From the IMG/VR virus record IMGVR_UViG_2823670853_000002: DNA of 64,000 nt; one strand, 5' to 3'. Of this stretch, positions 7,534 through 40,121 are shown piece after piece; position 1 is the first letter of the stretch, and each line of letters starts with the position of its first letter. This stretch comes from a virus. Its lineage: Duplodnaviria > Heunggongvirae > Uroviricota > Caudoviricetes. The translations under genes were made by a program, and so were the position numbers. The notes under the pieces were generated by a model that was given only the letters and a program-made list of their open reading frames with translations, ran no database searches and was not told the origin of the DNA.

Positions 7534-7539
7534 ATAAAT

Positions 7540-7929: not shown

Positions 7930-8011
7930 TTGCTGAAAAAATCAAAACATTTACTTTTGACATTATAAATTTTCTCTCGGTGTCGTAGGTGATAGCACCA
8001 TAATTGATAAT

Positions 8012-8263
8012 TTAGTGAGTTAGCAGTTCCATTTTTTGGATGATTTCCGCATGAGCATCATCGTTATCAACACTTAACTCGTTTAATGCCTCTCGCACTA
8101 CATCAACTTCTTCTGGTTGGAAGAAGTCATCTCGGTAGTCACCAAATAGAACCGAAACAAGCCTGCCACCAGCAACATCAAGATTGGCGCTAACAGGTGG
8201 CTCTTTACCATCCTCAAATTCGACTACAAAAGTTAATTTTCCCATCGTTACCACCAGCGACAA
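8012..8263 (-). CDS. Small acidic hypothetical protein
   Basis: 83-aa ORF in operon context. Confidence 0.35.
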   Translation of the reverse strand: MSLVVTMGKLTFVVEFEDGKEPPVSANLDVAGGRLVSVLFGDYRDDFFQPEEVDVVREALNELSVDNDDAHAEIIQKMELLTH

Positions 8264-8330
8264 ATTGAATACAAACCCAGTGCTGCCGCCATCACAATTC
8301 CTACCGTTGCGAATGCTTCAGGCCAGCTCA

Positions 8331-8591
8331 TTATCTCACCTCCAGTCTCCATACCGCCTGACCAATCCGGCTGGCATGGGTATCTTTGGATACTGTTCCA
8401 TCTTTAGCCATCTCCATAAGAATTTTGCGCAAATCTGCCGAACGCCATTCTTCATCAGGAAATTCCTTCTCCATTGCCAACCGCAGATTCCAGGTTGCCA
8501 TCCTGAATGGATATTCCCCGCCGAGAGCTTTATCTTGCAGGGCAGCCCGGGAACGCATCACCTGCAAAACCTTCTCTTTTACATCCATCAT
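8331..8591 (-). CDS. Hypothetical protein
   Basis: 86 aa from internal Met whose ATG overlaps the upstream stop (ATGA); the longer 134-aa frame overlaps the neighbour by 148 nt. Confidence 0.35.
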   Translation of the reverse strand: MMDVKEKVLQVMRSRAALQDKALGGEYPFRMATWNLRLAMEKEFPDEEWRSADLRKILMEMAKDGTVSKDTHASRIGQAVWRLEVR

Positions 8592-9391: not shown

Positions 9392-9903
9392 GCCGCGTTT
9401 CCTTCTTTCTTATTAACAATTACACCGTCATATATTTCATTAAGGTGCCCTCTCAACTCCATGCGCCTTAATGCAGATAACATGTAATCGCATTCAACCT
9501 GCTTATTTCCAGTAAATGGCTTATCGTCAGGATTACCCCAACAGCAATTACCCTTGGGCCACCCATGTACTTTCCGTACTCTTCCGTTAACAACGTGAAG
9601 TAATCCCCAGCCAGGTGGTAAATCCTCAACTGAAATAATTCCCGGCTCACTAATAAAGAATCGCCAGTCGCCCATTCCAAGAGATGGATTTTTACGAAAA
9701 CGCTTTTTCCTATCTGCCAACAAGTCAGCACGAGAACACTTCGCCTCTATCAGGCATGATGCTGAATTTCTGAATCCCATAGCATCTGGCTGTTCTCCGG
9801 TACTGGTTACAGCTATAAAGCGGTCATGAAAACAAACCTTGAACCCGTTGCGCTTAAGGAACTTATACGCAATCTGACAGAGTTCGCGGTGTGTTAACGC
9901 CAT
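9388..9903 (-). CDS. Predicted PD-(D/E)xK-fold nuclease-like protein
   Basis: 171 aa from MALTHRELCQ; candidate catalytic motif ...GEQPDAMGF...CLIEAKCS (D...E-x-K). Confidence 0.4.
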   Translation of the reverse strand: MALTHRELCQIAYKFLKRNGFKVCFHDRFIAVTSTGEQPDAMGFRNSASCLIEAKCSRADLLADRKKRFRKNPSLGMGDWRFFISEPGIISVEDLPPGWGLLHVVNGRVRKVHGWPKGNCCWGNPDDKPFTGNKQVECDYMLSALRRMELRGHLNEIYDGVIVNKKEGNAA

Positions 9904-9904
9904 A

Positions 9905-10093
9905 TCACTCTCCTTTAGTGCGCAAGTGGTTTTTCCAGCGGTTTTGCGCCGCGCTGGGCTTTTTGCAAAAACCACAATCCATCATCCCGTAATATTTCAT
10001 CAACCCCATCCGTCGGTTGCTGAGTCTCACCCACTGCCAGACGCCAGGAGCGTTTCTACGAACTAACAGAATCTTTGCTTTACGGTTTTTCAT
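9905..10093 (-). CDS. Small basic protein, paralog 3 of a tandem trio
   Basis: 62 aa starting MKNRKAK; ATG overlaps stop of the upstream paralog (ATGA). Confidence 0.3.
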   Translation of the reverse strand: MKNRKAKILLVRRNAPGVWQWVRLSNRRMGLMKYYGMMDCGFCKKPSAAQNRWKNHLRTKGE

Positions 10094-10266
10094 CTTACAG
10101 CGTACCCTTTCTTCCGCCTGTTCTGTGACGCAGTAGGCTTACGCTTTGCGGCAAAAGCCACCTGACCAAATGGATGGAGTACCGCTATCTTATGGTTGCT
10201 AATAACCAGCTCCACCACACGCACAGGTCGCTGTAAAAAAAGTCGTTTTGCCTTACGGTTTTTCAT
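10090..10266 (-). CDS. Small basic protein, paralog 2 of a tandem trio
   Basis: 58 aa starting MKNRKAK; shares a ~20-bp nucleotide repeat at its start with paralog 3; ATGA overlap with upstream ORF. Confidence 0.3.
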   Translation of the reverse strand: MKNRKAKRLFLQRPVRVVELVISNHKIAVLHPFGQVAFAAKRKPTASQNRRKKGYAVR

Positions 10267-10439
10267 CGCTTTGCTCTCCTGCGTCTCTTTGCTGCTCGTC
10301 GTGCCGCTGCAATACCGGTATGGCGGCGCTTTGGTGCCGGGATGATGTTGTCAGCCATCAGGACATACGGCTTTGCAATTAGCGCAGAAGCCCAAAAACG
10401 AGTCGGGTACGGTAACAAGCCGATACATGCCACACGCAT
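10263..10439 (-). CDS. Small basic protein with arginine-rich C-terminus
   Basis: 57 aa ending AARRAAKRRRRAKR; ATG overlaps stop of the Ea22-like gene (TAATG). Confidence 0.3.
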   Translation of the reverse strand: MRVACIGLLPYPTRFWASALIAKPYVLMADNIIPAPKRRHTGIAAARRAAKRRRRAKR

Positions 10440-11191
10440 TACTCACCTCCTTTGATGCGAATGCCTGCGGCGCGGATTGCAGCGATGACTTCAGAAACTT
10501 TGTATGCCATTACCGTTTGGTAATCATCGTGAAAATCTGTTCGATGAAGCATGCTGCTACGTTCCGGGAGCGATATTTCCCGAGCATCCAGTTCCTTAAC
10601 GCGTTCCTCCAGTTCGTAGACCCTGCATTGTTCTCTATCATCAATCAGATATACCCCAAGACATTCGCTTTCTACCCAACCGCCAAAATCATGATCGTAA
10701 CGCTCACATGAAAACTCACCGTCACCGTCCTTTGTTGGAATGGTGTAACTATCTAATGGGCCACCATATGTCGGCACATTTCCCAATGTTGGATGCTCAA
10801 TCCACATGAAAAATGCACGTCCGGTTATTGGGCAAATATCTGGCCGCCATTGGTTACGAACAGCCTTGGTTTCGGATAATTCTTCAGCGTGTTGTTTTAC
10901 TTCCTCAAGCTCAACTCTCAGCTTCCCTACCGTTAGCGCAATATCCTCGTTCTCCTGATCGCGGCGTTTTATGTATTGCTGGTTTCTTTCCCGTTCATCC
11001 AGCAGCGCCAGCACGGTTTCTGGTCCGGTCAGAAATTTGAAGGCGTTGAGCGCATCAATATCCACGCCGTAATCTTTAAGTTCCTGTTCGCTTATCAGAT
11101 CATCATCAACTGGCAACATTAACAGGCGTTCCATTGCCGGAATTGCACGCTCTGCCGCCTCACGCAGTGCCTGATAGTCAATCTTGCTCAC
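10439..11191 (-). CDS. Ead/Ea22-like family protein
   Basis: 250 aa starting MSKIDYQALREAAERA..., the characteristic N-terminus of Ea22-like prophage proteins. Confidence 0.6.
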   Translation of the reverse strand: MSKIDYQALREAAERAIPAMERLLMLPVDDDLISEQELKDYGVDIDALNAFKFLTGPETVLALLDERERNQQYIKRRDQENEDIALTVGKLRVELEEVKQHAEELSETKAVRNQWRPDICPITGRAFFMWIEHPTLGNVPTYGGPLDSYTIPTKDGDGEFSCERYDHDFGGWVESECLGVYLIDDREQCRVYELEERVKELDAREISLPERSSMLHRTDFHDDYQTVMAYKVSEVIAAIRAAGIRIKGGE

Positions 11192-11919
11192 TGGTTGCCT
11201 CCTTTTCGAAGCTCTGCGGCAAAGTCAGTGGCATGTTCACCGAGTAGTTTCCAGTTATCGCGTATATCAGATGCAAATGACTGTTCGGATTTTGAGTTAC
11301 ATTTCTGTGCAAACATCTCCAATCCCTGCGCCCGCACTTCAGCCAGGCATTTGCGAAACTCGGAAACGTACTGTTCGACGCTCATTCCCCAGCTAAGTGG
11401 ACATTCATTGAATGTTTCGCCTTCGTGCTCTTCATCAGGTAGCTCTTTGGTAAAGAACTCACGCTCAATGGCGTGGAGTGTGTCAGCAAAACGACGTAAG
11501 TTACTCAAACCTACCGTAATGGAGAATTCAGGAGCATCACATCCGACGCCCATCTGCTGATAAACGGCGGTTTTGAAGGCCTTAAGCCCCGCATTCTCCG
11601 CCACCAGCGCCGCGAGATTAGTCTCAAGCTCTGCAATTCGACACATAGCATCAATATTTGTGTCCTCCAGGCGCTTAATTTCACCAAGCAGCTCCAGTGC
11701 AACCTTTGGGTTGAACGCGGCAACATAACGAGCGTTATTCTCTGCGTTTTCCTGTCCATCAAAGCCGGGCCATTTGATAACGTCTCCACATCGTTTATCA
11801 CCGGGTGTATGCACCGCATATGTACCAGTACCCGGCGAAATAAATGCGACCCATTCGTCTGGTGTTGCCTTTTCTGCCGCCTCACGCAGTACCTGATAGT
11901 CAATTGTCATTCTCGCCAT
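11188..11919 (-). CDS. Ead/Ea22-like family protein (second tandem copy)
   Basis: 243 aa, MARMTIDYQVLREAAEKATPDEW...; N-terminal module shared with the adjacent paralog, C-terminus divergent. Confidence 0.6.
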   Translation of the reverse strand: MARMTIDYQVLREAAEKATPDEWVAFISPGTGTYAVHTPGDKRCGDVIKWPGFDGQENAENNARYVAAFNPKVALELLGEIKRLEDTNIDAMCRIAELETNLAALVAENAGLKAFKTAVYQQMGVGCDAPEFSITVGLSNLRRFADTLHAIEREFFTKELPDEEHEGETFNECPLSWGMSVEQYVSEFRKCLAEVRAQGLEMFAQKCNSKSEQSFASDIRDNWKLLGEHATDFAAELRKGGNQ

Positions 11920-12533
11920 CCTTCACAGTTGTAATCACGACAGCCTTCAAAATCATATGGGCTGTACTGCCAGGTGATTTTTCCGCAATGCGGACAATTC
12001 CAACGCACCTTCCCGCTTCGCGACTTCTTTCTTCTGTTCTGCTTTTTCAACCAGTCAGGCATGACCAAACCTGCGCCCTGAACCATTGTTCTGCGGTTAA
12101 ATTTATTGATATTGAACGTCCGGCGCTTTGCTGCATCAGCAATGGAAAATGGCAACCAAACTATTCCTGGTTCGTTTTTGTTGGCGACGCTAAAGATGGT
12201 CGCTTTACTGAAGTCATCTGTTGGCAATCCACCGTGTTGAAGCCAGTAAACATCGTTGCCGTTCCAGCTACCTTTTTTGTAGGCCACATACGCAGTGCAA
12301 TCTGACTCAATCAGGCTTTCTGTAGGGATGTACTGGCAATCAACGTGCCACACAGCCATTGCATCCACACTATCGGCACAAACAGGCTGATCGATATCTC
12401 GCCCACAATTCCAGGCTTTTTGGGCTTCTTCCAGCGTGTAAACATGAGCGCGATCGATATCAGAACTGTAACCATTGCCGTTATGGCAATGGAATGAGGC
12501 GTTATTACCCACAGTTTCACGCAAGCACATCAT
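11907..12533 (-). CDS. Hypothetical protein with C-terminal zinc-ribbon-like motif
   Basis: Start placed at internal Met (MMCLRETVG); C-terminus CPHCGK...C..C; longer frame would overlap the upstream gene. Confidence 0.35.
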   Translation of the reverse strand: MMCLRETVGNNASFHCHNGNGYSSDIDRAHVYTLEEAQKAWNCGRDIDQPVCADSVDAMAVWHVDCQYIPTESLIESDCTAYVAYKKGSWNGNDVYWLQHGGLPTDDFSKATIFSVANKNEPGIVWLPFSIADAAKRRTFNINKFNRRTMVQGAGLVMPDWLKKQNRRKKSRSGKVRWNCPHCGKITWQYSPYDFEGCRDYNCEGWRE

Positions 12534-12547
12534 GTAAAAACGGTTAC

Positions 12548-12787
12548 TCACTGGATGCCTCCTTGGTGAAGTTGCGCTGCGATGCACGAAAAAAAAGACT
12601 CCCGAGTATGACTGTTAAGAGCTGGTGCGAACGCCTCGTTAAGAACGGCGGCATCACAGCCGTCATCAATATAGAGCGCAATTTTTTTCTCCAGGCGCGC
12701 TTTGGCTTCCTGCAACTGCATACCCCGGCACGCACGCGGGATATAATCAGCAATTTGAGCGATAGCTTTTTCGTTCTGTTTAAACAT
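12548..12787 (-). CDS. Small hypothetical protein
   Basis: 79-aa ORF, operon-packed. Confidence 0.3.
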   Translation of the reverse strand: MFKQNEKAIAQIADYIPRACRGMQLQEAKARLEKKIALYIDDGCDAAVLNEAFAPALNSHTRESFFSCIAAQLHQGGIQ

Positions 12788-12983
12788 GCTTCACCTCGAT
12801 AGGCTTGATGGTGTCTAACAGCAGTCGGCGGCGCGTATTTTCTGCAAAATGGCGGCGTCCAGTTTCTTTGTGGTAAAACTCGTTTTTGCCAACGACCCAC
12901 ATCCGCTCTGTTTGGTGCAGTTTTTTTACCTGCGGGCCATCTTTGGTGATCACGGTACCGGTATGGGTTTTTACGATTGTCAT
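12780..12983 (-). CDS. Small hypothetical protein
   Basis: 67-aa ORF, overlaps neighbours by a few nt. Confidence 0.3.
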   Translation of the reverse strand: MTIVKTHTGTVITKDGPQVKKLHQTERMWVVGKNEFYHKETGRRHFAENTRRRLLLDTIKPIEVKHV

Positions 12984-13858
12984 GCCACTACCTCTTCGAA
13001 TTTCAACTCCAATTGGTCACCCCAGATTTCACATGATTCGGAACACGAACCAGTATCAAACCGCTTGGCCTGCACCATCGCCTGATACAAATTTCTGTAG
13101 TCGCTGTCGGCATACATTCTGGCAATCCCGTCAAGCGTCAGGTGACCACGGTACATAACGTCTTTACCTGTTCTGCGATGACCATCCCTGACGTGTTTGC
13201 CTGTAACCAGTTCGTTAAAAACCCGCATCAGACCTGGTTCGTCTTTACATGCAAGCCCCAGCTTTTGCGTTGACTTTTTGATGCAAAAAACACAGTTCCC
13301 GAGGTGCTCCGGGATTTGCAAATCAAAAGGTTGTTTTCGCCACCACCGGATAACATCCGACTTATCAAAATCTGACAGCTCGGCAAGATACCGGACGCCC
13401 GGTTTCGGTTTCAGCCTACGGGGTTCGTCCGCACGAATACCGAGCCATGTGATGTAATTCCCTCGCCCAAAATGGTCATCGCAATATTTCGTGAAAGGGG
13501 TGAGTTTTAGCCTGTCAGTACAGAACGCGCCGCCGATGTATGGCGTACCGTACTTTTTAACCATGTCCATAAACGGTTTAAGCACCGGCGTTCGCGTCTG
13601 AATATCCTTTGGTCCCCATTCCGTATAACCATTTGGCTGCCCAAGTTCTGGATTTATATCGACCTGCAACACCGTTAGCGGTACGTTCCAGAACTTCACA
13701 ACCTCACGAATAAAGCGATACGTCAGAGGATGTTCACAGCCGGTATCCATAAAAATGAAATGGACGCTAGCGCCAGCTTTTCGCTGTGCTTCCATCAGAT
13801 GAACGAGATAAGCCGATGTTCGTCCACCTGAAAAGCTGACGACTTGATGCATACTCAC
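12980..13858 (-). CDS. Phosphoadenosine phosphosulfate (PAPS) reductase-like protein
   Basis: 292 aa with the PP-loop motif SFSGGRTS near the N-terminus, as in PAPS reductase/DndC-like ATP pyrophosphatases. Confidence 0.7.
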   Translation of the reverse strand: MSMHQVVSFSGGRTSAYLVHLMEAQRKAGASVHFIFMDTGCEHPLTYRFIREVVKFWNVPLTVLQVDINPELGQPNGYTEWGPKDIQTRTPVLKPFMDMVKKYGTPYIGGAFCTDRLKLTPFTKYCDDHFGRGNYITWLGIRADEPRRLKPKPGVRYLAELSDFDKSDVIRWWRKQPFDLQIPEHLGNCVFCIKKSTQKLGLACKDEPGLMRVFNELVTGKHVRDGHRRTGKDVMYRGHLTLDGIARMYADSDYRNLYQAMVQAKRFDTGSCSESCEIWGDQLELKFEEVVA

Positions 13859-13861
13859 GGT

Positions 13862-14590
13862 TTATTCCTGAATGCGCTTAAACTCAATTACCCATACCCA
13901 GGGATTAGCGTTCCAGCTTTCTTCACCATAGATGGATTCCCACAGACGCTGGAACGCAACCTTGGCCATTGCGAAATCCCCCTTGGGAGTAAGGAATGTT
14001 TCCGGGTAATCAGGAAGCAAACTTCCAGCAGGCGGAACGCCCTCAGCCCCTGCATCGCATTCGCTGATATCGTTCAACCGCTCAACGCGCACGTTGGTAA
14101 TTTCCAACAGAATGCGTGATGCCCATCGCGGCATGTGAATTGATGGACGCCACCCACCATCAAACTTTTCATTCACAGTGTGAGGTTTCCAGTCGGCATC
14201 ATCGGGTATCGACCATAAGCCGTAATCACCAGGCTTTTGCTCACAACTGGCCCGATAAATCCTTGCTGCGTTCTTCTCATCACCACGACAAAGGTTGTCG
14301 TTCCAGTCCACACTACAACCATCCTCATTGCCTAATATCGCCCATGTTTCACGAACCCAAATTCGATCGCCGACGATACCAAAGGGGCAATTGAAGACAC
14401 TGCTTACACCATCAGCCCCGTACCACTGAAAACCTGCACCAATTTTTCTAACCATCACTGGTGCTTCTGGACCAACTTCCGCAGGCTGATTTTTCATTAT
14501 CCGCCGCGTCTGCGTTTTCCTTCCTTCGATGATGGCCCGGACCATCTCATCGTTGAAAATCATGCCGCGCTCTTTCACTTCGCCTTTCAT
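13862..14590 (-). CDS. Conserved phage protein of unknown function
   Basis: 242-aa ORF; probable start at Met10 (MIFNDEMVRAIIEGRKTQTRR), an N-terminus seen in prophage proteins adjacent to PAPS-reductase-like genes. Confidence 0.4.
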   Translation of the reverse strand: MKGEVKERGMIFNDEMVRAIIEGRKTQTRRIMKNQPAEVGPEAPVMVRKIGAGFQWYGADGVSSVFNCPFGIVGDRIWVRETWAILGNEDGCSVDWNDNLCRGDEKNAARIYRASCEQKPGDYGLWSIPDDADWKPHTVNEKFDGGWRPSIHMPRWASRILLEITNVRVERLNDISECDAGAEGVPPAGSLLPDYPETFLTPKGDFAMAKVAFQRLWESIYGEESWNANPWVWVIEFKRIQE

Positions 14591-14768
14591 GCATCCCCCT
14601 TACCCATGTGCGACGATGCCGCCAAAAGTGATAGAGAACAGCCAGAAATAGATCGCGGCCATAATGATTTTGAATGCCGTGTTCATATTTTCAGCTCCTG
14701 TGATTGATTGGATACATGCCGCGCCTTGCGGCATGTTTTTATTTTCACTTTCTCTGTTTTAAAAATCA

Positions 14769-30615: not shown

Positions 30616-32625
30616 TATACCTAAAACGTCATGAGCAACACCTCGAGTGTCCCCCTTACAAGACACAGAACGTCTGGCAAAAAGAGGTTCCACTCTGAAG
30701 CCATTGTCATGATAAAGCTCTCTGATGTTTGGCGCGCCACTGTTAGTAATGAGAACCTTTGCACCTCGGCGATGAGCATCCGTCAACAGAGACACCAGGC
30801 GTTTTTGCTCTTCAAACTTAAAGTCATGACCGGAATAGTTCGTGAATCCCTCTGTATTTGGAAGCGGTTCATATGGCGGATCGCAAAAAATGACATCTCC
30901 TTCTCCGGCAGCTTCAATCACCGCAGCAAAATCACCACATACAAACTCAGAACGACCTTCCGCACCGAGGAAGGCTTCCATCTCCTGTAATGGGAAATAC
31001 GGAGTTTTATACTTCCCATAACCGACATTGAACTCACCGGCCTGGTTGTAACGCGTCAATCCGTTAAAACAATGTCGGTTCAGGAACAAAAACGCCGCTG
31101 CGCGATGTAAATCATCATAGACTTGTTTGTTAAACGCATTCCGTACTGCCAGGTATCCTTCCTGTGTGTTGTAGTCCTGGAAAAACTGATGCGCCAGTGT
31201 GATAAGTGAATGCGCCTCGCGTTGCAGAGTCTTGTAAAAGTTAATCAGGTCAGCATTCACATCATTTAGCAGATTTTCCTGGTATCCGGCATTCATGAAG
31301 ACAGCTCCACCACCGACGAAAGGTTCAATCAGGCGCTTCCCTTCTGGCAAATAGCGAAAGATTTGTTCCAGAACACCAAATTTTCCACCAGCCCATTTGA
31401 ATATGGACCGTTCGAATTCTGCCGCTGGTTTAACTTTTCGCTCTTTTGTTTCACGCCCTTCATTCTGCCGACATGCAGCCTTGGTTATCCGCTCGCCAAT
31501 CCAGCGCATTACTGGTATCGCCATACTATTGCCGATCGCTTTGTAACGCGGTCCGTCAGCTGCAAGCATTGCGGCCTCTTCTTCGCTTAAATCTGGATAG
31601 TGATTGTGCAGATATGCCAGTTCATCTGAATTAACTTTTTTACGCTTTTCCGTAGGGATCAACGTATGCCAATCAGGAAAACCTTGCAGCCTTTCACATT
31701 CGACAGGGGTAAGACGGCGCATTCTACCGTCGCCGAGCAATACAATTGGTGCTTCATGGTTACATGTCAAAGTTGGTGCCGAATTATCGGTTTTTATCTC
31801 AGCCCCTCCTTGCCCATGTGCCATGGCAATTATGTTTGTATCATCGCAAGTTCTGATAGCGATGTTTGAAGTATATCTGGTAGTTTCCTTCCCCTCGCCT
31901 CTGCTCGGCGCAATATTCCGGCGCACGCCTTCGAACTCAAAAAGTACCGTTGCGGGATCGAGGTCTGTTCGAGCACTTGCGACAACAAACACGCGTCGGC
32001 GTCGTTGTGCCACTCCGAAGTATTGGGCATCAAGGATTCTCCAGGCCACCTTTCGCTGCGGTCCATAAATACAACCACACTGCGGCCACTTTGGAGCATG
32101 GCAACCGGTTTTGACATCCCACCGCCAGAACGTGTTACTTTTTCGTGATTCAGGTCGATCACCAGGTTCGAATGGCGCATCTTCTCCAGCCAATCCGGCA
32201 AGGAAACATCCGAACGCGTTGTCTGCTGATGACAGGACTCCTGGGACATTTTCCCAGACGATAACTGTCGGTTTGAGGAAGGACTCAGACCGTTTGTCGT
32301 CAATTGCATTTGCAAGCTCCACATACTTCAAAGTTAGCGCGCCGCGTTCATCATCAAGCCCACCACGTAAGCCCGCGATACTGAATGCCTGACAAGGCGT
32401 ACCCCCGACGAGCACATCAGGGGCTTCAATTTCTCCAGCCTGGACTTTTTGGGCGAGTTTTGTCATGTCGCCAAGGTTCGCGACATGGGGCCAGCGGTGC
32501 GCAAGAACGGCAGATGGAAAAGACTCGATTTCAGCAAACCACGCCGGACGCATACCCAACGGTTCCCAGGCAATACTCGCGGCTTCAATTCCACTGCAAA
32601 CAGATCCATAGCACAGCTCTTTCAC
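30607..32625 (-). CDS. dmt: Bifunctional DNA methyltransferase Dmt (C5-cytosine MTase fused to Dam-like N6-adenine MTase)
   Basis: 672 aa; N-terminal Dcm-like motifs ([17 protein letters not shown]), C-terminal Dam-like motifs ([12 protein letters not shown]). Confidence 0.85.
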
Positions 32626-33527
32626 TGCTTAGCCTCTCCACCAAGGGCATTTACCAGAGCATCAACCAGGCACGAAATTTCACTGGTCAACAGGAAGAAA
32701 TCTGCGTCCAGTCGCTGCGCAACATCTTCACTATCAATATCAGAGTTCTGCTCAAGCAATTCATCCGCAAATTTGACGCTGGTAAGGCTGAAGTTATGGT
32801 CCAGTGTAAATTTAATGCGGTTCTGCCAGTCGAGTGCCAACTTAGTGACGAGCTTGCCAGCTTCCAGGTGTGTGGAAATTTCATCGCTTCCCAAATCCTG
32901 CTTTTTCACTCGGGCAATACCGCCATCCTCAAGCACTGCCTTAAGTTCTGCCGCATCCCCCATTTGAAATCCCTGTGGAGCACTACCATCACGTACCCAG
33001 TCGGTCAGCGTTAATTCAATGGGATTTTCAACACTCAGGGGAACAACAGGAAGAGAACCCAGAGACTTACGCATAAGCGCGAGCATATCCTCTGCCTGCC
33101 GCGCGCTGGCATTGATATAGATACGTTTAGTTGAACCGTCGTAGATCGCCTGGATAACAGAAAACTTTGAAAAAGCCCGTGGCAGAAGAGAATGCAGAAC
33201 TTCGTCTTTCAGGGAGTCCTTCTCTGTTTTCTTAAGTTTACGCGCTTGTTCTTGCTCAAGTTTTTCAATTTTTTCTTGAATAGCTCGCTGGATAACCGGC
33301 GGGGGAAGAATTTTTGTTTCGCGCTTTGCTTCAACAAGGATAAAACCATTTCCATGCATAGCGATAACTTCGGAATTATCACCAAATGGCGATACAAAAC
33401 CGAACTTGGCCATATCCTGACTACCGCATGGCGTGAAAAGGATCATTTTCTTTTTATCTTCTAAGTCGGTCAGATCCGCCTCACGAGAAAGTTTATAAAT
33501 AGTAATGTTTTTCCAGTGCTTAAACAT
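32622..33527 (-). CDS. hrdC: RdgC-like recombination-associated protein (P1 HrdC position)
   Basis: ~301 aa from Met39 ([13 protein letters not shown]), resembling the RdgC N-terminus MLWFKNLMVYRL; stop overlaps dmt start. Confidence 0.65.
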
Positions 33528-33876
33528 GTTGTAACCCTTGAATATCAACCACAGAAAGCTCGTCTTTGTAGAAAAAGGCCAGGTTGTGGCACCCCCTCGT
33601 TTGAGCGTATGAGCTGGGACCAATTTCGTTCTTCCAGACAAATGGCTTCAAATCCGTACGGCGAAGCATAAAAACGCGATTTGTTCCGCTCTGATTCCCA
33701 ATGAGGCAAAAGCCTTCTTTCACCTTGATAGCCTGCAAGTTGTCGAGTTCACCGCTGGTTACACGGCTATCGAACTCCTTGCGGCTTATTAGCTCCATCT
33801 GCATCTGACGACTCCAAACAAATGCCCATTGAAGGGCGATGGCTGAATGGTACCGAAAACACGACATAAAAAACAA
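33520..33876 (-). CDS. Hypothetical protein (P1 uhr position)
   Basis: 118-aa ORF preceded by a strong C1 operator-like site. Confidence 0.35.
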
Positions 33877-33892
33877 TATTTATTAGAGCAAT
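33876..33892 (-). promoter_or_regulatory. C1 repressor operator-like site
   Basis: Reverse complement ATTGCTCTAATAAATAT, 16 of 17; in divergent region between 33876 (-) and 33974 (+). Confidence 0.6.
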
Positions 33893-33973
33893 TTTATAAT
33901 GAGTAAACGCCATGTAGACCACAAACAACCTAAGTTAAAATAACGAAAATCAGAGCAAATCATTGGTGATAAC

Positions 33974-34258
33974 GTGGCAAGTATTGCAACAAAAGACAGC
34001 ATTTGTTCGGGGCACGGAGGATTCCCATCCAGGCCTCCTGTAGAGAGTGAACCACTACTTAAAGTCAACGGAGTAGAAGTGTTAGTTGATGGTAAGCAAT
34101 ATGCACAGCATACCGATGGAAACAGTACGCACGGTGGGCAAGCTATATCAACCAGGGCATGGTTTACCGTCAATGGTAAAGGGGTCGTATGCGTTGGTGA
34201 CCCTGTTTCATGCGGCTCTACCGTAGCATCAGGAGACGGCCTGGTTCAGGTAAGTTAG
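33974..34258 (+). CDS. PAAR-like repeat protein
   Basis: 94 aa; ICSGHGG...HTDGNSTHGG...VNGKGVVCVGDPVSCGSTVASGDG resembles PAAR spike-tip repeats. Confidence 0.5.
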   Translation: MASIATKDSICSGHGGFPSRPPVESEPLLKVNGVEVLVDGKQYAQHTDGNSTHGGQAISTRAWFTVNGKGVVCVGDPVSCGSTVASGDGLVQVS

Positions 34259-34266
34259 GAGATATC

Positions 34267-35037
34267 ATGCTGGAAAAAGACTACCAGTTATCCGCATATA
34301 AAAAATTGGCCGCAGCCGGTGGGATGAAAACACCTGGTGCCATAACATCAGCACGAAACAGTGCTAACACGGCAAAACAGCTTGCAGAAGAATTGACGGG
34401 ATTAATTCTGGATACAATTGTCTATCCCGACACTATTACCAGCTATGTTTCAACGATCAGAACAACCACAACCGGCTTAACGAACATTGGAGAACTGGCA
34501 ACTAAGCACGCGGACCTGTTGGCTGATTATGCAGATCTGTCAATGCTGCTTCAACTCGATATTGGTTGGGATGTTTACTGCCGTGCTAATGAGCGAGAAG
34601 TTTCAGAACTGCCGATCTCTATTGCCATTGGTGATGTGAATATTACTAAATCGCTTGAGGACGCTGTTAATGCGCTTAATACATCAAGTTTAGTCGCTGC
34701 TATGGGGGAGATTAACCAGACCCTTAACACTGGCTCAGGAAGCTCGTCAGGCTCTGGTTCAGGCGGCGGAACTGCCACTCCCCCACCAGCACTAACAGAA
34801 GAACAAATTGAATCTCTGAAAGTAGCAACTGAACAGTTTGGGGTTGTTTTCAACCAGACAACAGCGCCCACAACTGCGTTACAACAGCAGTATGAACGAG
34901 CGAATGAAAGCGCCAACGTAGCCATAACTGCTTATAACCATGCTATCGGTACCGCGCTTGCGGAAGCATCAGCAAAGAACCACGGCAGCCTGGCGGCTGC
35001 AAATCGTGGTGTGGCAGAATATGAGCTTTCAGAGTAA
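34267..35037 (+). CDS. Hypothetical protein with Gly/Ser-rich linker
   Basis: ~256 aa from MLEKDYQL; central SGSSSGSGSGGGTATPPP linker; function unknown. Confidence 0.4.
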   Translation: MLEKDYQLSAYKKLAAAGGMKTPGAITSARNSANTAKQLAEELTGLILDTIVYPDTITSYVSTIRTTTTGLTNIGELATKHADLLADYADLSMLLQLDIGWDVYCRANEREVSELPISIAIGDVNITKSLEDAVNALNTSSLVAAMGEINQTLNTGSGSSSGSGSGGGTATPPPALTEEQIESLKVATEQFGVVFNQTTAPTTALQQQYERANESANVAITAYNHAIGTALAEASAKNHGSLAAANRGVAEYELSE

Positions 35038-35056
35038 CCATCCAGAATGAGTTCCC

Positions 35057-35329
35057 ATGTCACACAACCTGGAGCACCAGAAAGTCCACACCAGAATGGT
35101 GAAAGAGGTTCTGAAAGCCGTCGCCAGGGCCAATAATCACCCTTATCAGTCTGTATTTACAGACTTTATCGCCGGTCATCCCTCCTGTACGGTCTGTTTC
35201 TGGGAAACCTTCCACAAAATGTACCCGGATTCACCGTACGAATACGTCACGTTCTGCCATACCTGCCGTCGTTTTGATTTATACGAAACTGAAGCGGAGA
35301 TGAAGGCGGATGACCCGAAGTGGTGGTGA
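35057..35329 (+). CDS. Small cysteine-rich ORF upstream of the transposase
   Basis: 90 aa with CTVC...CHTC motifs; overlaps transposase start by 20 nt in another frame; may be an IS91 orf121-like accessory ORF. Confidence 0.35.
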   Translation: MSHNLEHQKVHTRMVKEVLKAVARANNHPYQSVFTDFIAGHPSCTVCFWETFHKMYPDSPYEYVTFCHTCRRFDLYETEAEMKADDPKWW

Positions 35330-36518
35330 TTTTCAGCCCCGACCGCTGAAACGCCTGTTCACAGCCAACCAGTGCTGGACATCCTTCCTGGATGCGGGCG
35401 GCCTGCGCGATATCGAGGTTGAGGCTGTCACAAAAATGCTGGCCTGCGGCACGCGGATACTGGGTGTGAAGGAATACAACTGCGATAAACCTGAGTGCCC
35501 CCACGTCAGATACGTCACTAACTCATGTGGCAGCCGTGCCTGCCCGTCCTGCGGAAAAAAGGCCACAGACCTGTGGATAGCGACACAGCTGAATCGTCTT
35601 CCTGACTGCGACTGGGTGCACCTGGTCTTCACCCTGCCGGACACGCTGTGGCCGGTGTTCGAAAGCAACCGCTGGCTGCTGAATGACGTGTGCCGTCTGG
35701 CGGTGGAGAATCTGCTGTATGCAGCCCGGAAACGGGGTCTGGAACCCGGTATCTTCTGCGCCATCCATACGTATGGCCGTCGTCTCAACTGGCATCCGCA
35801 TGTGCATGTGTCAGTGACCTGCGGAGGTCTGAATAAACACGGACACTGGAAAAAGCTGAGCTTCCTGAAAGACGCGATGCGTTCGCGGTGGATGTGGAAT
35901 ATGCGGCAGCTGCTTCTGAAAGCGTGGTCAGAAGGTCTGGCGATGCCGGAATCGTTGTCACATATCACGACGGAATCACAGTGGAGAAGCCTGGTGCTGA
36001 AAGCCGGCGGAAAATACTGGCATGTGTACATGTCGAAGAAGACAGCCGGAGGGCGGAATACGGCACGCTACCTGGGTCGTTATCTGAAGAAGCCACCAAT
36101 AGCGGCTTCCCGGCTGGCGCATTACAACGGAGGAGCGAGTCTGAGCTTCCGTTACCTGGACCACAAAACGGGAGAAACGGCGACGGAAACGCTGACACAG
36201 CGGGAGCTGGTCGCGAGGCTGAAACAGCACATCCCGGAGAAGTTTTTTAAGATGGTGAGATACTTCGGGTTCCTTGCCAACCGGGTGTGTGGAGAGAAGC
36301 TGCCGCAGGTGTACCGTGCTCTGGGGATGGATAAGCCGGAACCAGTGGCGAAAGTGTGCTATGCACAAATGGTGAAACAGTTCCTGAGTCGTGACCCGTT
36401 CGAATGCGTGCTGTGTGGCGGCCGGATGGTATACCGCCGGGCCATTGCGGGGCTGAATGTATCAGGGCTGAAGAAAAACGCGCGGGATATCAGTCTGCTG
36501 AGGTATATGCCGGCCTGA
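35310..36518 (+). CDS. tnpA: IS91-family transposase (HUH, Y2 type)
   Basis: 402 aa; N-terminal zinc-binding CGSRACPSCGKK, HUH motif NWHPHVHVSV, tyrosine motif ARYLGRYLKKPP. Confidence 0.75.
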   Translation: MTRSGGDFQPRPLKRLFTANQCWTSFLDAGGLRDIEVEAVTKMLACGTRILGVKEYNCDKPECPHVRYVTNSCGSRACPSCGKKATDLWIATQLNRLPDCDWVHLVFTLPDTLWPVFESNRWLLNDVCRLAVENLLYAARKRGLEPGIFCAIHTYGRRLNWHPHVHVSVTCGGLNKHGHWKKLSFLKDAMRSRWMWNMRQLLLKAWSEGLAMPESLSHITTESQWRSLVLKAGGKYWHVYMSKKTAGGRNTARYLGRYLKKPPIAASRLAHYNGGASLSFRYLDHKTGETATETLTQRELVARLKQHIPEKFFKMVRYFGFLANRVCGEKLPQVYRALGMDKPEPVAKVCYAQMVKQFLSRDPFECVLCGGRMVYRRAIAGLNVSGLKKNARDISLLRYMPA

Positions 36519-36780
36519 CACAGGCTAAGTGTGCCCGGGAATCGGTGCAGGTATAAAAAACAGCCTGTTACGGTATAAAAATCGACCATGCAGAGAGAGA
36601 AACCACCGGAGTGGAGGGAAAAGCAGAAAGGCTCACGTGGCATAAGGCGTGGACAGCGGTATCGTCTGGTTTTTCAATTTCCTATACGTCAAGGCCAGCA
36701 CAGCCAGCGCAGTCGCCGCTTTGGTTCCTGATTCTGTTCTTGATGAATTAAACAAAGCGGCACAGTAACAAAGGACTTCA

Positions 36781-37230
36781 TTGATAATTTTTCTTCAGGA
36801 GGAAGACATGTCATTCTTTTCTACGTTAAAAACAGCTTTGTCTTTGAAGGAGAAACTTGCTGCTACTGGTGTTCTTGTTCTGATTTGCGCACTTGTTGGT
36901 GCTGGGTTTGTATGGGAACGTCATCAGCTAAAGCAAGCCATGGAGAAAATTGGCAGTCTTGATCAGGCTGTTAAGGAACGTGATAAGTCAATAATGGATC
37001 TTAACCAGACCATTGAGACGATGAACAAAGCAGAGCAACATTTTCACAGCCAGGAAGTGAAAAATGAATCAGAACAAGCCAAATATGCTGACAGGCAAAT
37101 GGAACGAAAAGCTGAAGTTCAGAAACAACTGGTTGCGGCGGGTAATGTTCGCCAGCGCATTCCTGCTGACACTCAGCGGTTGCTCCGGGAGTCGATCAGC
37201 GAATTTAACGCCGACGCCGATAAAGGTTAA
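36781..37230 (+). CDS. i-spanin-like protein (N-terminal TM, periplasmic coiled coil)
   Basis: 149 aa; TM segment AATGVLVLICALVGAGFVW followed by coiled coil; overlapped by a lipoprotein ORF in +1 frame. Confidence 0.45.
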   Translation: MIIFLQEEDMSFFSTLKTALSLKEKLAATGVLVLICALVGAGFVWERHQLKQAMEKIGSLDQAVKERDKSIMDLNQTIETMNKAEQHFHSQEVKNESEQAKYADRQMERKAEVQKQLVAAGNVRQRIPADTQRLLRESISEFNADADKG

Positions 37231-37396
37231 CCACCCTGCCCCCAAAAGTGCATTTATGTGCAGGATGCCAGAGTTTAGCAGTGAATATTTTGATGATCTG
37301 CCAGCCTATATCCTTGATACAGAAACGATGCTGATGGGGATTAACAGGAAGAATCGCAACGTTAATGATTACAACCGCGCTATCAGCGGTAACTAA
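37145..37396 (+). CDS. o-spanin-like lipoprotein overlapping the i-spanin-like gene
   Basis: ~83 aa from MFASAFLLTLSGCSGS (lipobox LSGC); starts inside and extends beyond the preceding ORF. Confidence 0.45.
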   Translation: MFASAFLLTLSGCSGSRSANLTPTPIKVNHPAPKSAFMCRMPEFSSEYFDDLPAYILDTETMLMGINRKNRNVNDYNRAISGN

Positions 37397-37407
37397 AAGG
37401 GATTTTT

Positions 37408-37800
37408 ATGTCTGATAAAGTAACAGTAAAGCAAACTATCAACAAAGCGACTTCAATCTACAAAATTGAGCACATCACTGTTGGCAAGCCAGGATCTGAA
37501 CAATACCGTCATGCTTTCGAGCTTGCCGATCAGCTTGGTTTAAAACACCCGGATTGCATCGAGCATGTATTTCCGACCTATGCTGATGAGCAATGTACTC
37601 ATGTTCTTACCGAAGAGGATTTTTTCAGCACTGAAGAACGAGAAGGCGTTGATCGCTGCATTGGTGTGATTTGCTCTTCAGTGAGTTATGAGTTATTCCC
37701 TAATGTCCATGAAAATGGTGGTATTGGATACCAATTCCTGTACGAAGGCGATGAGCTTAAATGTTATGAACATGGCCTTCTCATCGAAAGCGTAGAATAA
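37408..37800 (+). CDS. Hypothetical protein
   Basis: 130-aa ORF followed by a hairpin (37814-37836) and the origin region. Confidence 0.4.
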   Translation: MSDKVTVKQTINKATSIYKIEHITVGKPGSEQYRHAFELADQLGLKHPDCIEHVFPTYADEQCTHVLTEEDFFSTEEREGVDRCIGVICSSVSYELFPNVHENGGIGYQFLYEGDELKCYEHGLLIESVE

Positions 37801-37842
37801 TACCCTTCCTTCTAACCGGCTATGTTGGCCGGTTTATTCAAC

Positions 37843-38058
37843 TTATCCACAGCATAGATCCAATAAACAGATCCTAAAGAGAACCTAGTAAGATCCAAAG
37901 AAGATCCCGGATCGCTGTAAGCCGCGTCATTTCTGGCCTGAAATGGGATCAACATTGACTATACGCGATTTTATGTTGACTGTGCACGATTTATTGTTGA
38001 CTGCACGCGATTTATTGTTGACTATACGCGACAGAAACATTGACTGTACGCGATTTTA
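37843..38058. other. oriR: Plasmid replication origin oriR: DnaA box, GATC cluster and five direct iterons
   Basis: DnaA box TTATCCACA (37843-37851); six GATC sites between 37857 and 37950; five ~21-bp direct repeats TTGACTrTrCrCGATTT (37956-38058). Confidence 0.6.
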
Positions 38059-38098
38059 GAGTCTGAATATTCACAGCTGTTGATAACAGCCATCCAAA

Positions 38099-39019
38099 TT
38101 GACGTCAGGCCGCGCCACACATGGAGAAACCACGATGCCGGAAGAAAGTAAAGGCTTCCTTAGCGTTGAAGAAGTTGCAGGAAATACAGGAGAAATCCAC
38201 AGCCTGAAGCCCAATAACAACAGCACTATACAACCCATCGCTTTGTTGCGTTTAGGTGTGTTTGTGCCAACCTTAAAATCTACCAATGTGGCGCTACGTC
38301 GCGGATCGTCAGTTACAACAAACACAACGAACGCAACTGAAGAACTATCAAGCCTCAAAATTGTTGAGCAGGAAGGCTATGAGGGAATTGAAATTCATGG
38401 TCCACGCCTGGATATGGATACTGATTTTAAGGTGTGGGTGGGCATAACCTCCGCGTTGTTTGACTATGCACCTGATGATGACGGTATAATCACCCTGCCA
38501 TTCTCCGAGTTTGCCGATCGATGCGGCTATCCACGTAAGCGCCTTTCAAAGGCGTTCCGTAAAAGTATTGATGACTCTCTGACACGCATTCAGCAGACAG
38601 TTGTCAAATTCCGCTTCCCGGCGGCAAAAGGTCATCTCAATAACATTAACGTCAACTTGTTGGCATATAGCAGCCTGAATACCGAGCTTGATGTTATCGA
38701 GATCCAGCCGCAGAAACAGCTATCTGAACTTTACTATGTTGACTATAAGCGAATCCTGAAGCTGAAGATGCTGGATAAACTAGGGCGCAAAGAGACGGCC
38801 AAGGTACTGTATACATTCTTTGAGGCTCTACCCGCCAACCCGGCACCTGTCAGCATTGAGCGCCTTAGGGCGAGGCTTAATCTCAAATCATCCGTTAGCG
38901 TGCAAAATAGCGTTATCAGAAAAGCCATGAAAGATTTAGAAGCTATTGAATATCTTAAATTTTCAGAGATAAAAAACGGCAGGAAAATCGGCTTCCAGAT
39001 CCATAAGCGCAATCCATAA
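38099..39019 (+). CDS. repA: Plasmid replication initiator RepA (P1 RepA family)
   Basis: 306 aa (294 if start at Met13, which has a GGAG RBS); conserved blocks IQPIALLRLGVFVP and GPRLDMDTDFKVW shared with P1 RepA; flanked by iterons. Confidence 0.8.
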   Translation: MTSGRATHGETTMPEESKGFLSVEEVAGNTGEIHSLKPNNNSTIQPIALLRLGVFVPTLKSTNVALRRGSSVTTNTTNATEELSSLKIVEQEGYEGIEIHGPRLDMDTDFKVWVGITSALFDYAPDDDGIITLPFSEFADRCGYPRKRLSKAFRKSIDDSLTRIQQTVVKFRFPAAKGHLNNINVNLLAYSSLNTELDVIEIQPQKQLSELYYVDYKRILKLKMLDKLGRKETAKVLYTFFEALPANPAPVSIERLRARLNLKSSVSVQNSVIRKAMKDLEAIEYLKFSEIKNGRKIGFQIHKRNP

Positions 39020-39020
39020 T

Positions 39021-39279
39021 ATTGACTATATGCGATAGCGAGAAGTTGACTATAGGCGACATTCGTTGACGCTGGTGGATTTTTGCTGGCGTCAATATTC
39101 TGCAAGTCTCTATTGAGATGGCTTTTAGGGCCATTTCATCGCGTATAGTCAACGTTTCTCCCGACAATATCTTACATAGTCGATCTTTGGTGGAGTTAAA
39201 TCGACTACAGTCAACTTTTGACTGTAGTCACATCGCGCATAGTCAACTATTCACATTAACCTTCGCGCATAGTCAACAT
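39021..39279. repeat. incA-like iteron cluster downstream of repA (copy-control locus)
   Basis: About eight copies of the TTGACTATrCGCG-type iteron in both orientations (e.g. 39021, 39046, 39140, 39200, 39235, 39265). Confidence 0.55.
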
Positions 39280-39311
39280 TTGCGCGGTTCTCATCAAGCA
39301 GTGGTATTGAT

Positions 39312-40121
39312 ATGCAAGAAGAAAAACAATACTACCTCTACGTTCTGGTGCCGGAGAACGGAGATACTTTTAAAATCGGCATTTCATGTGGTCCATTGGC
39401 ACGGTTTAAAGGGCTACAAGTGAGTCCCGATTTTGCGCTTTCACGGGTCTATCGTGGTACGCGTTTGGCAATGGTTAATCTTGAGCGAGCTTTACACGCA
39501 ACCTTTTTCCCCTGGAATGCGCCGTGGGAGAAAAGCGCCGGTGGCGGGCATACTGAATGGTTTACACGAGAGTGTCTTGATAAGGTTTTGGCTCATATCG
39601 AATATCTAAATGATATGTGGGGAGGGATTCTCGAGCGCATTAAGTCGAATGATTTACTTCAGCGTCCAGTAGATGCTGCTTGCTCTTTCGAAAAAGAGCT
39701 GGATGTTACTTCTATCGTGACTTTCAAAGATGACGCAGGAATGAGGGACGTGGCTTATGTCTCCATATCTGGCTATGAACCGGACGCGATCCGCGCTCAA
39801 TGTGAATTGCTGAAAGCAATGTTTATGCTTCGGACTAAATATCCCTGGGAGACAGGGCGGGTGTGCTTCCCTATGGAAGAGTTAACCGCCACCATTGATT
39901 CCCAGCTTTACCACGATAATCCAGAGAAGTTTTTTAGCCTTTTAGCCGGTAATGGGCTTAACTGTGTGTCCGGGCTGGGGCGAAGTAGAATCCAACATGC
40001 CTCGCTCTTCGGTCCCTTCTTTTACGATCGACACGGGTACTTTGAGGCTGAACTTCCGGCGCTTACGCGTGCTATAGATACTATCGATTTCGAACGATTA
40101 TTCGCTGCTCTTAGCAAATAA
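39312..40121 (+). CDS. T5orf172 (GIY-YIG-like) domain protein
   Basis: 269 aa; N-terminus YYLYVLVPENGDTFKIGIS...RFKGL...GGGHTEWF resembles the T5orf172/MUG113 signature; C-terminal ~170 aa unassigned; own terminator downstream. Confidence 0.5.
   Translation: MQEEKQYYLYVLVPENGDTFKIGISCGPLARFKGLQVSPDFALSRVYRGTRLAMVNLERALHATFFPWNAPWEKSAGGGHTEWFTRECLDKVLAHIEYLNDMWGGILERIKSNDLLQRPVDAACSFEKELDVTSIVTFKDDAGMRDVAYVSISGYEPDAIRAQCELLKAMFMLRTKYPWETGRVCFPMEELTATIDSQLYHDNPEKFFSLLAGNGLNCVSGLGRSRIQHASLFGPFFYDRHGYFEAELPALTRAIDTIDFERLFAALSK

What the first reader, a model, noticed from the sequence alone, without database searches (positions are those of the whole stretch)
35053..36740. IS91-family rolling-circle element inserted between two backbone genes
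A HUH/Y2 transposase with the characteristic zinc-binding, HxH and tyrosine motifs interrupts the block between the PAAR-like/Gly-Ser-linker genes and the spanin-like pair. IS91-family elements mobilise adjacent DNA by one-ended transposition, so this could be the entry route of nearby cargo such as resistance genes in related elements.
Basis: partly seen in the sequence, partly recalled or inferred. Interest (0 to 1): 0.4.

Follow-up and report, generated by a model that had tools for sequence, protein, structure and literature searches.

The report
Common IS1294-type insertion in P1-like plasmid
A complete, probably still mobile copy of a well-known jumping gene (an IS91-family, IS1294-type insertion sequence) has landed in the tail end of a gene of unknown function, upfB, on a P1-like phage-plasmid. 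It brought no extra DNA with it, so this is an ordinary event.

Summary
It spans window 34977-36689 (1713 bp), not 35053-36740.

**What it contains**
- Left (ter) end starting with GAAC, followed by a hairpin.
- A conserved 90-codon ORF (35057-35329).
- A full-length 402-aa zinc-finger/HUH/Y2 transposase (35310-36518).
- A right (ori) end finishing in ...CCTATACGT.

**Evidence that it is a recently active copy**
- It is 100% identical over its whole length to copies at other sites in E. coli plasmids.
- It has no terminal inverted repeats and made no target duplication.
- Its ori end abuts CAAG, a canonical family target.

**Where it sits**
- It lies inside upfB, 79 nt before the end of that ORF, not between two genes.
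- It replaces the last 26 residues of UpfB with 20 residues encoded by the element.
- Both flanks continue directly into P1 backbone, so it is a simple insertion with no cargo.
- Most P1-like plasmids read TAAG at this site. The CAAG allele does exist uninterrupted in two public contigs.

**Name and rating**
- It is a sister isoform of the 1688-bp IS1294 and is probably the published IS1294b. I could not confirm the name without ISfinder.
- This exact insertion was not found in any collection searched.
- Already known; low interest.

The parts
34977..36689 (+). Complete IS1294-type (IS91-family) insertion sequence, 1713 bp
   Evidence: The P1 homology break is at 34979/36691. 100%-identical full-length copies in L003 (two copies), L004, L019 and L020 have the same first and last bases. 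GC content is 54.9% against 45-48% in the flanks.
34977..34980 (-). terIS cleavage tetranucleotide (GAAC on the + strand, 5'-GTTC on the - strand); first four bases of the element
   Evidence: It is conserved as the first four bases of every full copy. The literature gives 5'-GTTC as the terIS cleavage site of IS1294/IS1294b (PMC13181058).
34979..35010 (.). Subterminal terIS hairpin. The inner 6-bp stem GCAGCC/GGCTGC is shared with IS1294; the outer stem is specific to this isoform.
   Evidence: DNA folding of either strand predicts the hairpin (- strand z = -2.4). The first 28 nt are identical in the 1688-bp IS1294.
35057..35329 (+). orf90, a small conserved accessory ORF (identical to WP_000019163.1) that overlaps the tnpA start by 20 nt. 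The conserved start may be M14 at 35096.
   Evidence: pN/pS is about 0.06-0.12 against 96%-identical isoforms, on only 5-6 substitutions per comparison. Homologues at 61-72% identity sit in the same overlapping position upstream of IS91-family transposase genes. There is no Pfam or NCBIfam family. The model is helical with pLDDT 76.6 and has no informative fold match.
35310..36518 (+). tnpA, a 402-aa IS91-family transposase (identical to WP_000198533.1)
   Evidence: Pfam Zn_Tnp_IS91 covers residues 19-109 and Y2_Tnp residues 147-327. NCBIfam transpos_IS91 scores 311.9 bits. The exact protein is recorded on at least 1000 contigs. It is about 96% identical to IS1294 TnpA.
36576..36689 (.). oriIS-proximal terminal segment, ending ...TTTCCTATACGT
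   Evidence: All copies and variants share the same last bases. This roughly 115-bp terminal piece survives as solo remnants in many plasmids (rows H128-H131). A weak imperfect palindrome lies near 36653-36668 but is not significant by folding energy.
36690..36693 (-). Target tetranucleotide abutting oriIS (CAAG on the + strand, 5'-CTTG on the - strand). It belongs to the host DNA, not to the IS.
   Evidence: Flanks of the other copies read GAAC in 12 cases, CAAG in 2 and GTAC in 2. The family target is 5'-GTTC/CTTG (PMC13181058).
34210..35037 (+). Disrupted upfB. The 255 native residues of the 34210 ORF are fused to 20 residues encoded by the left end of the IS.
   Evidence: Translation of the occupied and reconstructed empty sites. 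P1 annotation of upfB.
36690..36768 (+). Orphaned 3' end of upfB (last 25 codons plus the stop). It still contains the predicted P1ppfA promoter at about 36740-36766.
   Evidence: Alignment to P1 and to the P1-like record MH422554.
36808..37230 (+). ppfA, the first intact backbone gene downstream of the IS
   Evidence: P1 annotation transferred by alignment.

Best explanation
Window 34977-36689 is a complete, very probably active copy of a 1713-bp IS1294-type insertion sequence. It belongs to the IS91 family and is most likely the isoform published as IS1294b. It arrived by a single, simple rolling-circle transposition into the 3' end of upfB on a P1-like phage-plasmid.

Mechanism, taken from the family model and not shown here:
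- The zinc-finger/HUH/Y2 transposase nicks the - strand between a 5'-GTTC or 5'-CTTG tetranucleotide and oriIS, the right end of the element.
- The displaced strand is cut after the 5'-GTTC at terIS, the left end, which lies next to a hairpin.
- The resulting single-stranded circle is joined 3' of a target tetranucleotide. Here that target is 5'-CTTG, read as CAAG on the + strand at 36690-36693.
- No inverted repeats are involved and no target duplication is made.

Consequences in this window:
- The last 26 residues of UpfB are replaced by 20 IS-encoded residues.
- The upstream ppfA promoter P2 is moved 1.7 kb away from ppfA, while promoter P1 stays in place.
- No cargo DNA came in with the element.
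- If termination at terIS failed in a future event, the DNA carried along would be the backbone to the left of 34977 (upfB 5' part, upfC, uhr, hrdC, dmt).
For: Shown directly:
- Transposase family membership and motifs.
- Exact ends, from five 100%-identical copies at other sites and from the break in P1 homology.
- No terminal inverted repeats (8 of 40 matches in register) and no direct repeat of the flanks.
- The ori end abuts CAAG. Other copies abut GAAC, CAAG or GTAC.
- A ter-end hairpin directly after GAAC.
- The flanks rejoin into continuous upfB.
- The CAAG allele of the empty site exists uninterrupted in an IMG/VR contig and in a metagenome contig.
- tnpA and orf90 are both under purifying selection when compared with 96%-identical isoforms.
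- About 470-500 PLSDB records and 131 complete E. coli genomes hold near-full-length copies.

From the literature:
- The ori/ter organisation, the tetranucleotides, the bottom-strand circle intermediate and one-ended transposition at 1-14% for IS1294/IS1294b (PMC13181058).
- IS1294b sits downstream of repZ in IncI1 plasmids (PMC5043248). The window's isoform occupies that position in the two IncI plasmids I examined.
- The 1688-bp variant is what an ISfinder-based annotation calls IS1294 (PMC10101111, together).
Against: - None of the 477 PLSDB plasmids matching the reconstructed empty site has CAAG there; all copies inspected read TAAG. The canonical-target reading therefore depends on a rare allele, seen once against 73 T-allele contigs in IMG/VR.
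- Both uninterrupted CAAG contigs also carry a second nearby SNP that the window lacks.
- The name IS1294b could not be checked against ISfinder.
- One paper gives 5'-GTCC as the IS1294b target. I did not see GGAC (its + strand form) next to any of the 17 ori ends examined, counting the window.
- The oriIS palindrome is not supported by folding energy.
- Activity of this particular copy is inferred, not measured.
- This exact insertion was found in no other record, so it rests on this single sequence.
Confidence: 0.92

Rival explanations
1. The element inserted at the common, non-canonical TAAG site, and the flanking T later mutated to C. Alternatively, the base was altered during integration.
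For: All 477 matching PLSDB plasmids differ from the reconstructed site, and every copy inspected has TAAG. IS91 uses rare non-canonical targets at under 1% each.
Against: This needs two rare events instead of one. Uninterrupted CAAG alleles exist in two independent contigs. Offset-cleavage schemes that I worked through by hand would leave an extra T at the left junction, and none is present (sequence at 34970-34980).
Confidence: 0.06
2. The copy is a decayed or domesticated remnant that can no longer move.
For: No direct activity assay was possible. Truncated remnants of this family are very common in plasmids (rows H96-H132).
Against: It is identical at all 1713 bases to copies at five other sites. 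Both ends and both ORFs are intact.
Confidence: 0.03
3. The IS arrived as part of a longer one-ended transposition unit that delivered cargo into the plasmid.
For: IS1294/IS1294b perform one-ended transposition in 1-14% of events. The same isoform has resistance DNA on its ter side in IncI plasmids.
Against: The base before 34977 and the base after 36689 are adjacent in uninterrupted upfB. Against the closest IS-free relative, the only extra DNA at this locus is the 1713-bp IS itself. The other differing segments lie at least 14 kb away and hold phage-type genes.
Confidence: 0.01
4. Assembly artefact: a multicopy IS was placed wrongly into the P1-like contig.
For: This insertion site appears in no other record of PLSDB, INPHARED, RefSeq complete E. 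coli genomes, IMG/VR or JGI metagenomes.
Against: Both junctions have the exact signature of the mechanism: the element starts at GAAC, ends at ACGT next to CAAG, and no base is lost or duplicated. A misjoin would not be expected to reproduce this. Nearby independent insertions of the same family into upfB are documented in finished plasmids.
Confidence: 0.03

Closest known systems
IS1294b (IS91 family; Yassine et al. 2015, as cited in PMC5043248 and PMC13181058)
   Same: It is an IS1294-like isoform with a 5'-GTTC ter end. It is found downstream of repZ/repA in IncI plasmids with resistance DNA on the ter side. It is experimentally active and capable of one-ended transposition according to the literature.
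   Different: Identity to the ISfinder reference could not be computed here. The published preferred target 5'-GTCC was not seen next to any copy I examined; the flanks were GAAC, CAAG or GTAC.
IS1294 (1688 bp in L005; the element an ISfinder-based annotation of p1108-IncY and p1108-CMY2 calls IS1294)
   Same: The first 28 nt and the terminal bases are identical. Positions 361-1713 are 94.5% identical. TnpA is about 96% identical. The targets and the lack of inverted repeats and target duplication are the same. It also inserts into upfB and rdgC of P1-like plasmids.
   Different: Positions 29-360 are unrelated. IS1294 carries a 62-aa ORF there instead of orf90, has a different TnpA N-terminus, and is 25 bp shorter.
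IS91 (family prototype)
   Same: Same transposase architecture, the same ter-gene-ori layout, a target tetranucleotide next to oriIS, and a small ORF upstream of and overlapping tnpA.
   Different: The IS91 ter site is 5'-CTCG. It has two ori palindromes. Its accessory gene is orf121, with a 1-nt stop/start overlap. I did not test orf90 for homology with orf121.
ISCR elements
   Same: Distantly related HUH rolling-circle transposases that capture adjacent resistance genes.
   Different: The NCBIfam ISCR clade model scores only 14.7 bits against a cutoff of 925. This element is not a member.

Membership tests
IS91 family | Transposase with an N-terminal zinc-binding domain plus an HUH/Y2 catalytic domain | tested here: met
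   Pfam PF14319 at E=2.1e-22 and PF04986 at E=2.8e-57. NCBIfam NF033538 scores 311.9 bits against a cutoff of 125. HPHVHV at residues 162-167 and YLGRY at 253-257.
IS91 family | No terminal inverted repeats; two different ends (ter and ori) | tested here: met
   The first 40 nt against the reverse complement of the last 40 nt give 8 of 40 matches in register and at most 12 at any offset.
IS91 family | No target-site duplication | tested here: met
   The flanks AGCATCAGCAAA and CAAGGCCAGCAC share no direct repeat and rejoin exactly into upfB.
IS91 family | The ori end abuts a 5'-GTTC or 5'-CTTG target tetranucleotide | tested here: met
   The window reads CAAG (5'-CTTG on the - strand). Other copies read GAAC in 12 cases, CAAG in 2 and GTAC in 2.
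IS91 family | The ter end carries the cleavage tetranucleotide next to a subterminal palindrome | tested here: met
   GAAC at 34977-34980 and a hairpin at 34979-35010.
IS91 family | Palindrome(s) in oriIS | tested here: inconclusive
   Only a weak imperfect stem near 36653-36668 was found. Folding z-scores are -0.06 and -0.47.
IS91 family | Rolling-circle transposition through a single-stranded circle; one-ended transposition | not testable with these tools
   Known for IS91, IS1294 and IS1294b from experiments. For this copy there is only indirect evidence: identical copies at many sites.
IS1294b (isoform name) | At least 95% nucleotide identity to the ISfinder reference over the full length | not testable with these tools
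   No reference sequence was available. Indirect support: the element is distinct from the variant annotated as IS1294, and it occupies the site downstream of repZ in IncI plasmids.
ISCR elements | ISCR-clade transposase | tested here: not met
   NF052416 scores 14.7 bits against a cutoff of 925.

The most novel reading that the evidence does not exclude
orf90 could be a real transposition regulator of IS1294b-type elements, playing the part that Orf121 plays in IS91 (damping transposition and sharpening termination at terIS). It is a small helical protein whose gene overlaps the tnpA start.

If so, upstream accessory genes would be a general and interchangeable feature of the IS91 family rather than something unique to IS91, as a 2026 paper states. 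IS1294 carries an unrelated 62-aa ORF in the same slot.
Probability: 0.3. Interest if true: 0.3.

Novelty: already known. Interest (0 to 1): 0.1.

Why it matters
- Practically, this is an annotation correction. The element's true ends are 34977-36689, and upfB should be marked as disrupted.
- The insertion shows that loss of the UpfB C-terminus is compatible with carriage of a P1-like plasmid.
- It adds one more case to a stretch upstream of repA (upfB, upfA) that has taken several independent insertions in relatives.
- An active IS1294-type element on a transducing phage-plasmid could in principle move neighbouring phage DNA to other replicons, or recruit resistance DNA later. Nothing of that kind has happened in this window.

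Tried and rejected
- **Cargo delivery by this copy.** Rejected because the flanks are contiguous upfB.
- **Non-canonical TAAG target.** First suspected because no PLSDB record matched the reconstructed empty site exactly. Downgraded after exact-pattern scans found the CAAG allele uninterrupted in IMG/VR and in a metagenome contig.
- **The same insertion elsewhere.** Not found in PLSDB, INPHARED, RefSeq complete E. coli genomes, IMG/VR or JGI metagenomes.
- **Records that first looked like the same site.** CP122754, NZ_CP062833 and NZ_JBWDPV010000003 turned out to be different insertion points.
- **Naming the element.** Text searches for published lengths found nothing useful. PMC4135994 is not held. 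pR7AC (KF434766) is not in the plasmid collection. Cluster names say only 'IS91 family transposase'.
- **Solved structures related to TnpA.** None by sequence.
- **orf90.** No Pfam or NCBIfam family. An AlphaFold model at pLDDT 76.6 gave no Foldseek match below E=3.5.
- **oriIS hairpin.** Not significant by folding energy.
- **Promoter and terminator scan.** At chance level.
- **Second copy in the window.** None found.

Full report
**Setting.** The window is a P1-like phage-plasmid.
- Window 32600-40000 is 96-98.5% identical to phage P1 and its relatives and runs in the same gene order: dmt, hrdC/rdgC, uhr, upfC (PAAR motif), upfB, ppfA, mlp, upfA and a RepFIB/pO111-type repA.

**The observation.**
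- ORF 35310-36518 encodes a 402-aa protein. It matches Pfam Zn_Tnp_IS91 (E=2.1e-22) and Y2_Tnp (E=2.8e-57), and NCBIfam transpos_IS91 at 311.9 bits against a cutoff of 125.
- The zinc-binding cysteines are at residues 58-81, the HUH motif HPHVHV at 162-167 and the double tyrosine YLGRY at 253-257.
- The transposase reading is therefore correct, and the protein is neither truncated nor damaged.

**True boundaries.**
- Alignment with P1 and with a P1-like genome shows homology ending at 34979 and resuming at 36691.
- Full-length copies that are 100% identical over 1713 bp occur at other sites in E. coli plasmids CP122754 (two copies), NZ_CP062839, NZ_CP062833 and NZ_JBWDPV010000003. Every one starts GAACCACGGCAG and ends TTTCCTATACGT.
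- The element is therefore window 34977-36689, 1713 bp.
- The two ends are not inverted repeats (8 of 40 matches), and the flanks share no duplication.
- GC content is 54.9% inside the element and 45-48% outside.

**Anatomy, left to right on the + strand.**
- GAAC (5'-GTTC on the other strand), the ter cleavage tetranucleotide reported for IS1294/IS1294b (PMC13181058).
- A hairpin at 34979-35010.
- orf90, 35057-35329.
- tnpA, 35310-36518, overlapping orf90 by 20 nt.
- About 170 bp of ori-side sequence ending in ACGT. I found only a weak palindrome in the ori end, not distinguishable from shuffled sequence.
- The host tetranucleotide CAAG (5'-CTTG on the other strand).

Among the other copies I collected, the tetranucleotide next to the ori end is GAAC 12 times, CAAG twice and GTAC twice. 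This matches the family rule.

**Insertion site.**
- The element lies inside upfB, 79 nt before the end of that ORF.
- The last 26 residues of UpfB (NKASTASAVAALVPDSVLDELNKAAQ) are replaced by 20 residues read from the left end of the IS.
- By coordinate transfer from the P1 record, the predicted promoter P1ppfA stays between the IS and ppfA, at about 36740-36766. P2ppfA, at about 34808-34837, is now 1.7 kb further away.

**A discrepancy at the empty site, and its resolution.**
- Rejoining the two flanks gives ...CAGCAAA|CAAGGCC....
- None of the 477 PLSDB records that match this site is identical to it. Every copy I read has TAAG instead of CAAG. The difference is synonymous, AAT versus AAC.
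- I considered an insertion at a non-canonical target followed by a mutation. I also worked through offset-cleavage schemes by hand; these predict an extra T at the left junction, which is absent.
- Exact-pattern scans then found the CAAG allele uninterrupted in one IMG/VR contig, against 73 contigs with the T allele, and in one metagenome contig.
- The simplest history is a canonical insertion next to CAAG in a lineage that carried this rare allele.
- The two CAAG contigs also carry a nearby second SNP that the window lacks, so they are not the direct parent.

**No cargo.**
- Compared with the closest IS-free relative, NZ_CP062860.1 (97-99% identical), the only extra DNA at this locus is the 1713-bp IS.
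- Three other window segments are unmatched in that relative: 4122-14595, 51166-51408 and 63218-64000. All lie at least 14 kb away. The largest holds phage-type genes (Ead/Ea22, DUF551, a PAPS-reductase-like protein) where the relative has a type I restriction system.
- The window has only one copy of the IS.

**Which element is it?**
- A 1688-bp sister element shares the first 28 nt and the last 1353 bp (94.5% identity). It differs completely between positions 29 and 360, where it has a 62-aa ORF, and its 399-aa TnpA has a different N-terminus.
- That sister is the form present in p1108-IncY and p1108-CMY2, which an ISfinder-based annotation calls IS1294 (PMC10101111).
- The window's 1713-bp form is thus an IS1294-like isoform.
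- In two IncI plasmids it sits at the same position just downstream of repA, with an integron or tet(A) on its ter side. PMC5043248 describes the site downstream of repZ as a hot spot for IS1294b.
- I therefore think it is IS1294b but could not verify this. Note that one paper lists 5'-GTCC as the IS1294b target, and I did not observe that flank.

**Is it active?**
- Its sequence is identical to copies at five other sites, and both ends and both ORFs are intact.
- Near-full-length copies occur in about 470-500 PLSDB records and 131 complete E. coli genomes.
- These facts argue for a recently mobile element. Activity of this particular copy is an inference.
- The mechanism I describe comes from published work on the family, not from anything measured here. 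It consists of an HUH/Y2 nick at ori, strand displacement, cleavage at ter, a bottom-strand circle and joining next to a target tetranucleotide.
- Under that model, read-through at ter would carry along DNA to the left of 34977.

**Relatives.**
- IS1294-type elements have entered the same part of P1-like plasmids several times. IS1294 is at the GAAC of window position 34894 in pYZMc17-1_100k. The 1713-bp form is at the GAAC of 34606 in NZ_JBWDPV010000003 and between upfA and repA in CP122754.
- NZ_CP062833 has a single copy whose ter flank equals the site in NZ_CP062839 and whose ori flank is the 34894 GAAC. That corresponds to a deletion of roughly 10 kb removing ban/dnaB, dmt, rdgC, uhr, upfC and most of upfB.
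- Phage JL22 has ISEcp1-blaCTX-M-55 in upfA.
- This stretch clearly tolerates insertions. With 18 candidate tetranucleotides in upfB alone, there is no need to invoke targeting.

**orf90.**
- PGAP annotates it as a hypothetical protein (WP_000019163.1).
- Against two 96%-identical isoforms it shows 4 synonymous and 1-2 non-synonymous changes, giving pN/pS of about 0.06-0.12. The counts are small.
- Homologues at 61-72% identity lie in the same overlapping position upstream of IS91-family transposase genes on unrelated contigs.
- Conservation starts at M14, so the real product may be 77 aa.
- The model is a small helical protein (pLDDT 76.6) with no informative structural match.
- A 2026 paper states that IS91 is unique in the family in having an extra ORF, orf121, which regulates transposition. 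orf90 occupies the equivalent place. I did not compare the two proteins.

**Verdict.** This is a real and correctly classified element, but with wrong coordinates and no sign of the suggested cargo role. It is an ordinary insertion of a very common enterobacterial IS.

Noticed in passing
window 35057-35329 (orf90); L099 3001-3273; L100 136-369; L005 13628-13816: A conserved small ORF overlaps the start of tnpA in IS1294b-type elements and in homologues at 61-72% identity. IS1294 has an unrelated 62-aa ORF in the same slot. A 2026 paper says only IS91 has such an accessory gene (orf121).
   Followed up: partly
L019 (NZ_CP062833.1) 4002-5714 compared with L004 (NZ_CP062839.1) 4201-5913; window 34894: A sister plasmid from the same pig-faeces study has one IS copy with the ter flank of the L004 site and an ori flank at a GAAC in upfB. 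This amounts to a roughly 10-kb deletion of ban/dnaB, dmt, rdgC, uhr, upfC and most of upfB. It arose either by an intramolecular ori-end event or by recombination between two copies.
   Followed up: partly
window 34606, 34894, 36690 and about 37767; L005, L020, L003, L104: The stretch from upfB through upfA to the region upstream of repA has taken at least five independent mobile-element insertions in P1-like plasmids and phages. They include ISEcp1-blaCTX-M-55 in upfA of phage JL22.
   Followed up: partly
L095 (NZ_MW077911.1) and L105 (NZ_CP162989.1), record position about 1924-3641: The identical 1713-bp IS sits at the same point downstream of IncI repA in two plasmids. The DNA on its ter side differs: intI1-dfrA17-aadA5 in one and tet(A)/tetR in the other.
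   Followed up: no
window 34976/36690 (reconstructed empty site); L021 143-169; L103 1846-1872: The CAAG target exists only as a rare synonymous allele of upfB (AAC instead of AAT). It was seen in 1 of 74 IMG/VR contigs and in none of 477 PLSDB records.
   Followed up: yes
window 4122-14595: A 10.5-kb segment is absent from the closest relative, which carries a type I restriction-modification system at that place. Here it encodes Ead/Ea22-like, DUF551 and PAPS-reductase-like proteins and several ORFs with no family.
   Followed up: partly
window 51166-51408: A short 243-bp stretch is unmatched in the closest relative, which has an IS1 copy at about this position.
   Followed up: no
L007, L011, L012 (Acinetobacter idrijaensis MII contigs): A 99.9%-identical full copy of the IS forms a stand-alone 1718-bp contig, and its left end appears at two other contig ends, in an Acinetobacter draft genome. 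This could be real spread outside Enterobacterales or contamination.
   Followed up: no
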